Shown: one piece after another, positions 63,158-64,000 of the stretch | Layout of the letters: each line of letters starts with the position of its first letter | Numbering within the stretch: the stretch's first letter is position 1 | From: an uncultured Bacteroidales bacterium | GTDB lineage: Bacteria; Bacteroidota; Bacteroidia; Bacteroidales; Paludibacteraceae | Length of the DNA: 64,000 bases | Assembly (NCBI GenBank): GCA_934692905.1 | Contig: CAKUUM010000001.1 | Location: forward strand, 27,997-91,996 | Direction: 5' to 3' | The notes under the pieces: generated by a model | Told to the model about the DNA's origin: nothing | Database searches by the model: none | The model's input: the letters and a program-made list of their open reading frames with translations, nothing else | Program-made: the position numbers and the translations under genes

Positions 63158-64000
63158 TTACCCTTGCCTGTGGCAGATGATGTGGGTGGCGGTGTGGGCG
63201 GCGGGGCGGGAGCCGAGGAGATGGGAGAGGTGGTGGTAGCGGGTGAGCATGGTATGGCGGTAGTGTTCGTCGGTGAGGAGACGCTGGAGTTCGTGCTCTA
63301 CGTTGCTGACGGAGAAGCGTGAGGCAATCAGTTCCTGTATGACCTCCTGCTGCGGGATGATGTTCACCAAGGTGAAGTACTTGGTGCGGAACAATACAGG
63401 ACGTATCAGCCATTCCAACCAGCGGCTGCAGGCAATATAATAGACCGCCGTTTGCGGGCAGCCGAGCAGCGCAGTCTCCAATGTAGCCGTGCCCGAATTG
63501 ACGACAGCGGCGCGAGCGGAGGAGACCAAGGTATAGGTGTCGCGCGTCAGTGTCTCGCCGCAGAGATAGGGCGCGTAAAAGGAATCGTCTATCCCAGGTG
63601 CGGCAGCCACTACGATACGGTAATCCGTGCCCGCGACACGGCGGGCTGCCTCCAACATGGTCGGTAGGCAATGGCGTATCTCGGAGGGGCGGGAGCCCGG
63701 CAATAAAGCGACGACCTCCTTTTCCTCTCCTTTTGTGGGGGGTGGGGCTCCCCCTGCCCCCCTCAGAGAGGGGGAATAGTATCGAGATGCCACACGGGTG
63801 GGATGGTCTGCTGACAAATCTGTTTTTTCGATTTCGTTATTTGTCCTTTCTGCTTGATGAGATTGTTGCCAGGCGCGGATGCAGTCGGCGGTGGGGTTGC
63901 CGACGTATTGGCATGAGTAGCCGTAGCGGGCGTAGAAGGCAGGTTCGAAGGGGAAGATACCCAGTACATCGTCGGCGTATCGGGCTATGCGGTGGACACG
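63158..64000 (-). CDS. lpxB: Lipid-A-disaccharide synthase, 5' end outside the window, carrying a low-complexity insert
   Basis: LLPGSRPSEI, VNSGTATLETALLGCP and LVNIIPQQEVIQELI motifs. My translation stays in frame through to nt 64000 (...IFPFEPAFYARYGYSCQYVGNP...). Confidence 0.9.
   Translation of the reverse strand, partial: RVHRIARYADDVLGIFPFEPAFYARYGYSCQYVGNPTADCIRAWQQSHQAERTNNEIEKTDLSADHPTRVASRYYSPSLRGAGGAPPPTKGEEKEVVALLPGSRPSEIRHCLPTMLEAARRVAGTDYRIVVAAAPGIDDSFYAPYLCGETLTRDTYTLVSSARAAVVNSGTATLETALLGCPQTAVYYIACSRWLEWLIRPVLFRTKYFTLVNIIPQQEVIQELIASRFSVSNVEHELQRLLTDEHYRHTMLTRYHHLSHLLGSRPAAHTATHIICHRQG
63746..63775 (+). repeat. Short-form GC-rich hairpin element inside lpxB coding sequence (in-frame)
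   Basis: ggctccccctgcccccctcagagaggggga. It encodes SPSLRGAGGAP within an expanded linker between YVGNP and LLPGSR. Confidence 0.75.

What the first reader, a model, noticed from the sequence alone, without database searches (positions are those of the whole stretch)
63746..63775. Hairpin element translated inside lpxB
LpxB has about 56 residues between YVGNP and LLPGSRPSEI. My recollection is that typical LpxB has about 20-25. The stretch SPSLRGAGGAPPP is encoded by ggctccccctgcccccctcagagaggggga. This is the fourth housekeeping gene in 64 kb carrying the element in-frame, which argues for a systematic phenomenon rather than coincidence.
Basis: partly seen in the sequence, partly recalled or inferred. 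Interest (0 to 1): 0.65.

Follow-up and report, generated by a model that had tools for sequence, protein, structure and literature searches.

The report
Selfish hairpin repeat translated inside lpxB
A 30-base GC-rich hairpin repeat that is scattered through this gut Bacteroidales genome sits in frame inside the essential lipid A gene lpxB. It is read as a floppy linker between the enzyme's two domains, much like the palindromic elements known from Rickettsia genes.

Summary
Window 63746-63775 is an exact copy of a dispersed repeat, (G)GAC[T/C]TCCCC-N2-3-CCCC[CTC/TCC]-loop-[GAG/GGA]GGGG. It lies antisense inside the only lpxB gene and encodes SPSLRGAGGA.

- **Copy number:** 33 copies in this 2.06-Mb Paludibacteraceae-like MAG, 17-18 of them inside genes. 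Hosts include ribF, rsmH, murE, murF, ddl, era, ligA, hisS and an ABC-F gene.
- **Distribution:** three sister species carry 23-103 copies; 15 other congeners sampled have none and two have a single match. It is patchy across Bacteroidota, and a reversed-pattern control gives about 0.
- **Linker length:** 23 LpxB orthologues without the element have a 19-32-residue linker. This genome has 62 and a sister species 102.
- **Second unit:** a decayed tandem unit (63713-63745, PPPTKGEEKEV) is intact in close strains.
- **Protein context:** the insert falls in the interdomain linker. AlphaFold gives pLDDT <50 for residues 178-219 and >90 for most of both domains.
- **Reading frames:** genic copies use both orientations and five frames, so this is a DNA element, not a peptide motif.

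Best reading: a REP/RPE/MITE-like selfish repeat, tolerated because it is nearly stop-free and encodes disorder-prone residues. The driver is unknown: there is no RAYT. DUF559 endonuclease genes bracketed by such units exist in relatives but not here. It is a new member of a known kind.

The parts
63158..64000 (-). lpxB (lipid-A-disaccharide synthase), 3' 843 nt. The gene continues 381 nt beyond the window end and is the only lpxB in the genome.
   Evidence: ORF. NCBIfam TIGR00215 hit on the window fragment. Single match in G000. PDB 5W8S/5W8N are the best sequence and fold matches.
63746..63775 (+). Intact hairpin repeat unit, oriented on the + strand and antisense to lpxB. It has a C-run (63749-63753), a spacer, then the stem CCCCCTC (63758-63764), loop AGA, and stem GAGGGGG (63768-63774). 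It encodes SPSLRGAGGA, LpxB residues 203-212.
   Evidence: nhmmer E = 3.5e-5. RNA fold of -20 kcal/mol for 41 nt. Identical in the sister species G006 and in L059.
63776..63796 (+). 3' tail of the unit (AATAGTATCGAGATGCCACAC). An AATA...TATCG-type tail is shared with other copies. It is conserved across three species and encodes VASRYY.
   Evidence: Tails of copies C12 33379 and C20 17646. One difference in 50 nt between G000, L059 and G006.
63713..63745 (+). Decayed second repeat unit in direct tandem (GACCTCCTTTTCCTCTCCTTTTGTGGGGGGTGG). It encodes PPPTKGEEKEV.
   Evidence: Close LpxB variants read PSYGGEGEV (P0007) or PSYGGVGEV (P0014) at this position. That is the canonical translation of the second subfamily. 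DNA alignment.
63719..63877 (-). Expanded interdomain linker of LpxB (residues 169-221). Residues 178-219 (window 63725-63850) are predicted disordered.
   Evidence: E. coli LpxB 5W8S aligns to query residues 5-168 and 222-386, so 53 residues here stand against 19 in E. coli. AlphaFold2 gives pLDDT <50 and coil for residues 178-219.
16274..16308 (+). Sister copy inside ribF (minus-strand gene). It encodes SPLSEGVRGS, a different frame from lpxB.
42658..42739 (+). Inverted doublet (about 82 nt; two units tail to tail around a 19-nt spacer) inside rsmH.
46075..46105 (+). Sister copy inside murE (sense orientation). It encodes RLPQPPQGGGS.

Best explanation
The 30-nt sequence is one unit of a dispersed, GC-rich palindromic repeat family that behaves like mobile or selfish DNA of the REP/RPE/MITE kind.

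- **Shown:** in an ancestor of a small clade of uncultured Paludibacteraceae-like gut bacteria, units landed in the interdomain linker of lpxB. The site now holds two tandem units, one intact and one decayed, plus flanking low-complexity sequence. Because the gene is single-copy and stays open and conserved on both sides, the insert is read through by the ribosome.
- **Inferred:** the insert forms a disordered, solvent-exposed loop between the two Rossmann-like domains and has no function of its own.
- **Inferred:** such insertions survive in essential genes because of the unit's composition. C-runs and G-runs leave five of six frames free of stops. They encode Pro, Gly, Ser, Leu, Arg, Glu and Thr, which favour disorder. 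Selection then only has to remove copies that are out of frame, stop-containing or placed in structured regions.
- **Open:** how the units spread. No RAYT transposase is present. Doublets look like internally deleted versions of small DUF559 endonuclease cassettes bracketed by the same kind of units in related genomes. That suggests, but does not show, a MITE-like relation to those cassettes.
For: - Exact repeat well above chance.
- 33 copies in G000, 17-18 of them inside genes. 103 copies in G006, 35-44 of them genic.
- Copy numbers are 20, 26, 89 and 23 strict matches in G000, G002, G006 and G148. They are 0-1 in 17 other congeners. The reversed-pattern control gives 0-3.
- 35 of 301 Bacteroidota genomes have at least one match.
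- Hosts identified as RibF, RsmH, MurE, LpxB, MurF, Era, Ddl, LigA, HisS and ABC-F.
- Relatives without the element have short LpxB, MurE and RibF loops.
- Strain-level LpxB variants show gain, loss, tandem duplication and decay of units at this one site, always in frame.
- Both orientations (31 antisense, 21 sense; p = 0.21) and five frames are used, giving unrelated peptides.
- 125 of 136 copies keep a perfect stem of 7 bp or more. The two main stem types differ by compensatory changes.
- The insert maps to the interdomain linker of E. coli LpxB and has pLDDT <50, while most of both domains exceeds 90. The fold is still LpxB-like.
- No split genes were found around the intergenic copies examined.
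- DUF559 genes are bracketed by like units in 6 of 12 and about 6 of 26 loci. The inner ends of the G002 cassette resemble the doublet spacers.
Against: - No transposition event, target-site duplication or clean filled-versus-empty junction was seen. Empty sites are too diverged.
- No RAYT gene and no DUF559 gene in G000, G006 or G148, the genomes with many copies. The mobilising activity is therefore unidentified.
- There is no RNA or protein evidence that the insert is translated.
- The intact unit and its tail are better conserved than the surrounding linker: 1 difference in 50 nt against about 5 expected. That could mean constraint rather than neutrality.
Confidence: 0.85

Rival explanations
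1. The hairpin is kept because it works at the nucleic-acid level. It could be an mRNA structure that slows ribosomes at the boundary between the two LpxB domains to help co-translational folding, or one that stabilises or attenuates the transcript. It could also be a DNA site for a binding protein.
For: The unit and its tail show 1 difference in 50 nt among G000, L059 and G006, while the adjacent linker is scrambled. 92% of copies keep perfect stems, with compensatory variation between subfamilies. The lpxB copy sits exactly at a domain boundary. Several intergenic copies lie within 2-20 nt after a stop codon, as REPs do.
Against: Most congeners and all other families do well without it. The neighbouring unit in the same linker has decayed. 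Close strains carry one, two or differently placed units. Folding energies are no better than dinucleotide shuffles (z = -0.05 to -1.7). Stem conservation is equally expected if the hairpin is needed only for mobility, or if the copies are young.
Confidence: 0.08
2. The insert is an adaptive protein feature: a Pro/Gly/Ser-rich flexible linker or interaction motif selected at the protein level. The DNA similarity between genes would then be secondary.
For: The peptides are all rich in Pro, Gly and Ser and lie in loops. The linker is kept in frame across many strains.
Against: The same DNA unit is read in five frames and both orientations, giving unrelated peptides such as SPSLRGAGGA, SPLSEGVRGS, RLPQPPQGGG, TPPTPSKRG and DSPYPLKEG. 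About half of all copies are intergenic. The DNA is more conserved than a peptide constraint requires. 23 orthologues have no such linker.
Confidence: 0.04
3. The element is not translated, because of programmed ribosomal bypass or RNA-level excision, or it is an assembly artefact of GC-rich hairpins in metagenome bins.
For: There is no direct expression data. This is a MAG of 103 contigs.
Against: The same insertion is present in independent assemblies from different projects and sources. All genic copies are stop-free and all length variants keep the frame, which bypass or excision would not require. The intergenic copies examined do not lie between two halves of one gene. No take-off/landing codon pair or in-element stop is present in lpxB.
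Confidence: 0.02

Closest known systems
Rickettsia palindromic elements (RPE; Ogata et al. 2000, as summarised in PMC10969869 and PMC3733652)
   Same: Dispersed palindromic repeats inserted in frame into many unrelated housekeeping genes. They are read as extra peptide segments compatible with the host protein's fold. No dedicated transposase is known.
   Different: RPEs are about 100-150 bp, limited to Rickettsia, and each family encodes one conserved peptide. This unit is about 30-50 bp (doublets about 76-84 bp), occurs in Bacteroidota, and is read in five frames and both orientations.
REP / REPIN elements, including intragenic REPs (Di Nocera et al. 2013, PMC3733652)
   Same: 20-40-bp GC-rich imperfect palindromes with a short conserved tag at one end. 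They occur as singlets, inverted dimers and tandem clusters, are often just downstream of stop codons, and are occasionally inside genes. Abundance differs sharply between related species.
   Different: The tag is GAC[T/C], not GTAG or CGTC. No RAYT gene is found in the genomes rich in copies. 35-55% of copies are intragenic rather than a small minority.
Bacterial MITEs that give in-frame fusions (for example Coxiella QMITE, PMC5896051; review PMC10969869)
   Same: The doublet form has terminal inverted repeats and looks like an internally deleted version of a gene-carrying cassette. In-frame insertions into ORFs occur.
   Different: No target-site duplication was found. The candidate parent carries a DUF559 (Vsr-like PD-(D/E)XK) endonuclease gene rather than a known transposase. 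The commonest form is a solo end of about 30 nt.

Membership tests
REP (repetitive extragenic palindrome) families | Short (20-40 bp) imperfect palindrome present in many dispersed copies | tested here: met
   33 copies in G000 and 103 in G006. 92% have a perfect stem of 7 bp or more.
REP (repetitive extragenic palindrome) families | GTAG or CGTC tetranucleotide tag at one end (PMC3733652) | tested here: not met
   The conserved end is (G/A)GAC[T/C]T (alignment).
REP (repetitive extragenic palindrome) families | Cognate RAYT (Y1 transposase, PF01797) in the genome | tested here: not met
   No PF01797 match in G000, G002 or G006. Matches in other relatives do not track the element. The MAGs are 93-97% complete, so absence is not absolute.
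REP (repetitive extragenic palindrome) families | Predominantly extragenic location | tested here: not met
   17-18 of 33 copies (G000) and 35-44 of 103 (G006) lie inside predicted genes.
Rickettsia palindromic elements (RPE) | In-frame insertion in ORFs of conserved housekeeping genes | tested here: met
   RibF, RsmH, MurE, LpxB, MurF, Era, Ddl, LigA, HisS and ABC-F.
Rickettsia palindromic elements (RPE) | About 100-150 bp element encoding one conserved peptide per family; sequence relatedness to RPE-1..10 | tested here: not met
   The unit is about 30-50 nt. Five frames give different peptides. Sequence relatedness to RPEs was not tested directly. The taxon is Bacteroidota.
MITE | Terminal inverted repeats bounding a 70-300 bp non-coding element | tested here: inconclusive
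   Doublets of 76-84 nt are bounded by GACyTCCCC...GGGGArGTC. Most copies are singlets of about 30 nt.
MITE | Target-site duplication and a related autonomous element encoding a transposase | tested here: inconclusive
   No target-site duplication is visible at the one coding filled/empty pair. DUF559 cassettes with like ends exist, but DUF559 is not a known transposase and is absent from G000, G006 and G148.
Programmed translational bypass elements (T4 gene 60 type; mitochondrial byps) | Insert not constrained to multiples of three or to be stop-free; matched take-off and landing codons | tested here: not met
   All genic copies are open and in frame. Length variants keep the frame.
LpxB (host gene; GT-B lipid-A-disaccharide synthase) | Family profile match, GT-B two-domain fold, conserved motifs either side of the insert | tested here: met
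   TIGR00215 hit on the fragment: 101.9 bits, below the whole-protein cut-off because 127 residues lie outside the window. PF02684 on all homologues. 5W8S aligns on both sides of the insert. AF2 pTM is 0.81 and the top fold hits are LpxB. D92, PGSR228-231 and SGTATLE296-302 are invariant.

The most novel reading that the evidence does not exclude
The hairpin units are the terminal repeats of an undescribed class of small mobile cassettes in Bacteroidota. The only gene in such a cassette is a DUF559 (Vsr-like PD-(D/E)XK) endonuclease. Internally deleted doublets and solo ends of these cassettes would then spread in trans, or by repair-mediated copying at endonuclease cuts. They would colonise even essential genes because the ends are built to be nearly stop-free in every frame.
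Probability: 0.25. Interest if true: 0.65.

Novelty: new member of a known kind. Interest (0 to 1): 0.5.

Why it matters
It extends the Rickettsia 'selfish DNA inside protein-coding genes' phenomenon to free-living gut Bacteroidota, with a much smaller unit that is nearly stop-free in every frame.

- **Protein evolution:** it gives a concrete source of lineage-specific disordered loops in essential enzymes. The LpxB linker runs from 19 to 102 residues within one genus.
- **Annotation:** unexplained Pro/Gly/Ser-rich inserts in MAG proteins may be repeat DNA rather than errors or functional motifs.
- **Mobile elements:** it points to a testable candidate partner, DUF559 cassettes, for a repeat class whose mobilisation is unknown.

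Tried and rejected
- **RAYT/REPtron hypothesis:** PF01797 is absent from G000, G002 and G006 and does not track the element.
- **DUF559 as a resident mobiliser:** absent from G000, G006 and G148 although present and bracketed in G002 and others. Kept only as a lead.
- **Known RNA family:** only sub-threshold chance hits in Rfam.
- **Phage origin:** no blastn match.
- **Literature by sequence words and by topic:** nothing for this family.
- **Clean insertion boundaries and target-site duplications from G006-versus-G000 comparisons:** most pairs are intergenic and too diverged. One coding pair gave +84 nt but no clear duplication.
- **Split genes around intergenic copies, as a sign of bypass:** none among the copies examined. 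For example, the C18 copy lies between def and an MntP-like gene.
- **GxxExxY gene at 48806-49513:** it is flanked by a different, AT-rich repeat, not this element.
- **Interior of the C20 6146/6325 pair:** it holds another repeat family and no cassette remnant.
- **Hairpin energy z-scores:** uninformative, because C-run/G-run shuffles fold equally well.

Full report
**1. Observation**

The only long ORF across it is on the minus strand (63158 to beyond 64000). Extending into the contig gives a 407-aa protein.

- That protein is the single lpxB of the genome.
- The window fragment hits NCBIfam lpxB.
- The full protein's best PDB match is E. coli LpxB 5W8S.

The reverse complement of the 30-mer encodes SPSLRGAGGA, residues 203-212. 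The hairpin core CCCCCTCAGAGAGGGGG occurs three times in the window at up to 2 mismatches, against 0.01 expected. A looser core occurs four times against 0.05 expected. The four copies lie in ribF, rsmH, murE and lpxB.

**2. The repeat family**

Whole-genome scans gave 13 strict loci. A profile search gave 33 copies in this 2.06-Mb, 103-contig genome. The oriented consensus is (G/A)GAC[T/C]TCCCC(C)-N2-3-CCCC[CTC or TCC]-loop-[GAG or GGA]GGGG, with short subfamily-specific 3' tails.

Several forms exist:
- singlets of about 30-50 nt;
- direct tandems;
- inverted tail-to-tail doublets of 76-84 nt (rsmH, C30);
- 72-nt long forms with an inner core (window 45747-45818 and 14244-14315).

Of 136 copies in G000 and its sister G006, 125 have a perfect stem of 7 bp or more. 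The two main stems, CCCCCTC/GAGGGGG and CCCCTCC/GGAGGGG, differ by compensatory changes.

**3. Where the copies lie**

I built a simple codon-model gene caller; it assigns 85% of the genome to coding sequence. With it, 17-18 of the 33 copies are inside genes. NCBIfam confirms the hosts as RibF, RsmH (two units), MurE, LpxB, MurF (two units), Era, Ddl, LigA, HisS and an ABC-F ATPase. Other hosts are a TolC-like protein and several further proteins.

In G006, 103 copies were found and 35-44 are genic. Orientation relative to the host gene is 31 antisense to 21 sense (p = 0.21).

Five reading frames are used, with example peptides:

| Strand | Frame | Peptide |
|---|---|---|
| + | 0 | DSPYPLKEG |
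| + | 1 | TPPTPSKRG |
| + | 2 | LPQPPQGGG |
| − | 1 | SPLSEGVRGS |
| − | 2 | SPSLRGxGGx |

The sixth frame carries TGA. This is therefore a DNA element, not a peptide motif.

Six of the 15 intergenic copies in G000 sit 2-19 nt after a stop codon. None of those examined lies between two halves of one gene.

**4. Distribution**

| Genome(s) | Strict-pattern matches |
|---|---|
| G000 | 20 |
| G002 | 26 |
| G006 | 89 |
| G148 (same genus) | 23 |
| 17 other congeners | 0-1 each |
| G019 (another family of the order) | 24 |
| Reversed-pattern control | 0-3 |

In an even sample of 301 Bacteroidota genomes, 35 have at least one match and about ten have six or more. Record titles place the window's clade among uncultured Bacteroidales/Paludibacteraceae gut MAGs.

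**5. The lpxB site**

The span from SCQYVGNP to LLPGSRPSEI has these lengths:

| Genome(s) | Residues |
|---|---|
| 23 relatives without the element | 37-50 |
| G002 | 58 |
| G000 | 80 |
| G006 (two units) | 120 |

Close LpxB variants from public assemblies, 82-97% identical and 395-450 aa long, show the dynamics.
- Most carry SPSLRGAGGA followed by a second unit.
- That second unit is intact in P0007 and P0014 (PSYGGEGEV, PSYGGVGEV) and decayed to PPPTKGEEKEV in this genome (window 63713-63745).
- P0017 has only the SPSFGGVGEV unit.
- P0013, P0015 and P0016 have both units about 25 residues apart.
- More distant proteins have none.

At the DNA level, the intact unit and its tail differ at 1 of 50 positions among G000, L059 and G006. 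The upstream linker is scrambled.

The murE site tells the same story: one unit in G000, two in G002, a motif-less 13-residue insert in G006, and no insert in five other genomes. RibF relatives lack about 50 residues at the insertion site, and G006 has two units there.

**6. Protein context**

E. coli LpxB aligns to residues 5-168 and 222-386. The 53 residues between correspond to 19 in E. coli, which is the interdomain linker.

AlphaFold2 with a 72-sequence alignment gives pTM 0.81. Most of both domains has pLDDT above 90. Residues 178-219 have pLDDT below 50 and are coil, lying between helix 163-183 and strand 222-227. The model's best fold matches are the LpxB structures. Catalytic-region motifs are invariant.

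**7. Mechanism**

- *Shown:* this is a lineage-restricted, multi-copy palindromic repeat. Its copies in essential single-copy genes are always open and in frame, and they lie where relatives have short loops.
- *Inferred:* the insert is translated into a disordered loop. The units persist because their C/G-run composition is nearly stop-free and encodes disorder-prone residues.
- *Unknown:* the mobilising activity.

RAYT (PF01797) is absent from the copy-rich genomes.
- Stand-alone DUF559 genes are bracketed by inverted units of the same architecture in 6 of 12 loci among relatives and about 6 of 26 loci in copy-bearing Bacteroidota.
- The inner ends of the G002 cassette resemble the spacers of the doublets. 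This fits doublets being internally deleted cassettes.
- G000, G006 and G148 have no DUF559 gene, so this remains a lead.

**8. Comparison with known elements, and novelty**

The behaviour matches Rickettsia RPEs and the intragenic REPs of Di Nocera et al. (PMC3733652; review PMC10969869). Membership in REP, RPE or MITE families fails on defining features:
- end tag;
- RAYT partner;
- extragenic location;
- size;
- single conserved peptide;
- target-site duplication.

No Rfam family, phage sequence or paper matches the unit. I class it as a new member of a known kind. The open and more novel possibility is a DUF559-cassette origin.

**9. Limits**

The genomes are MAGs. Gene calls come from my own simple model. 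No clean insertion junction was obtained.

Noticed in passing
window 23446-23510, 41486-41545, 54616-54680 (G000 C1 51442-51506, 69482-69541, 82612-82676) and over 100 other places in the genome: A repeat of about 65 nt with an internal tandem periodicity of about 11 nt is present in more than 100 copies genome-wide. It is far more abundant than the hairpin element.
   Followed up: no
window 45747-45818 (+) and 14244-14315 (-): 72-nt long forms of the hairpin element. The same outer arms (ACTCCCCCT.CCCCCTC ... GAGGGGG) enclose a conserved inner core with its own GC hairpin. Both are intergenic (ftsI-murE spacer; downstream of the gene ending at 14317).
   Followed up: partly
L140 (G002:C33 around 15758-16075), L142 (G015), L139/L146 (G019), L138 (G021), L229, L214, L230, L216, L225: Small stand-alone DUF559 (Vsr-like endonuclease) genes are bracketed by inverted copies of hairpin units of the same C-run/C-run/hairpin design. 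In G002 the right end is duplicated in tandem.
   Followed up: partly
window 48806-49513: A 169-aa GxxExxY-type ORF between mraY and murD is flanked by a different, AT-rich repeat of about 44 nt, with four tandem or inverted copies on its right side. This is not the GC-rich element.
   Followed up: partly
G000 C17 30356-30514, C29 6231-6389, C63 488-635, C8 23317-23464 and others: A further repeat family of about 150 nt with ten or more copies, and a 50-80-nt family with about 15 copies (for example C1 26217-26295). This small genome carries several interspersed repeat families.
   Followed up: no
L039 (G002 murE) versus window 46075-46105: G002 MurE carries two units at the same site (GLPRPPQRGGNGDSPDPLKEGD). 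G006 has an insert of equal length with no recognisable unit. The site seems to be a recurrent or long-lived landing place.
   Followed up: partly
record titles (L061, L065, L066, L069, L125): Several public records that encode close Bacteroidales-type LpxB orthologues are titled as Mycobacteriaceae, Acidaminococcaceae, Azospirillum sp. CAG:239 or Clostridium sp. These are probably mislabelled bins.
   Followed up: no
G000 C4 35807-36211: A 134-aa ORF that looks to me like a four-helix-bundle '23S rRNA intervening-sequence protein' carries a hairpin unit at its C-terminal end (TPQTPQRGGS). Another unit lies 930 nt away facing outward. The family assignment was not tested.
   Followed up: no
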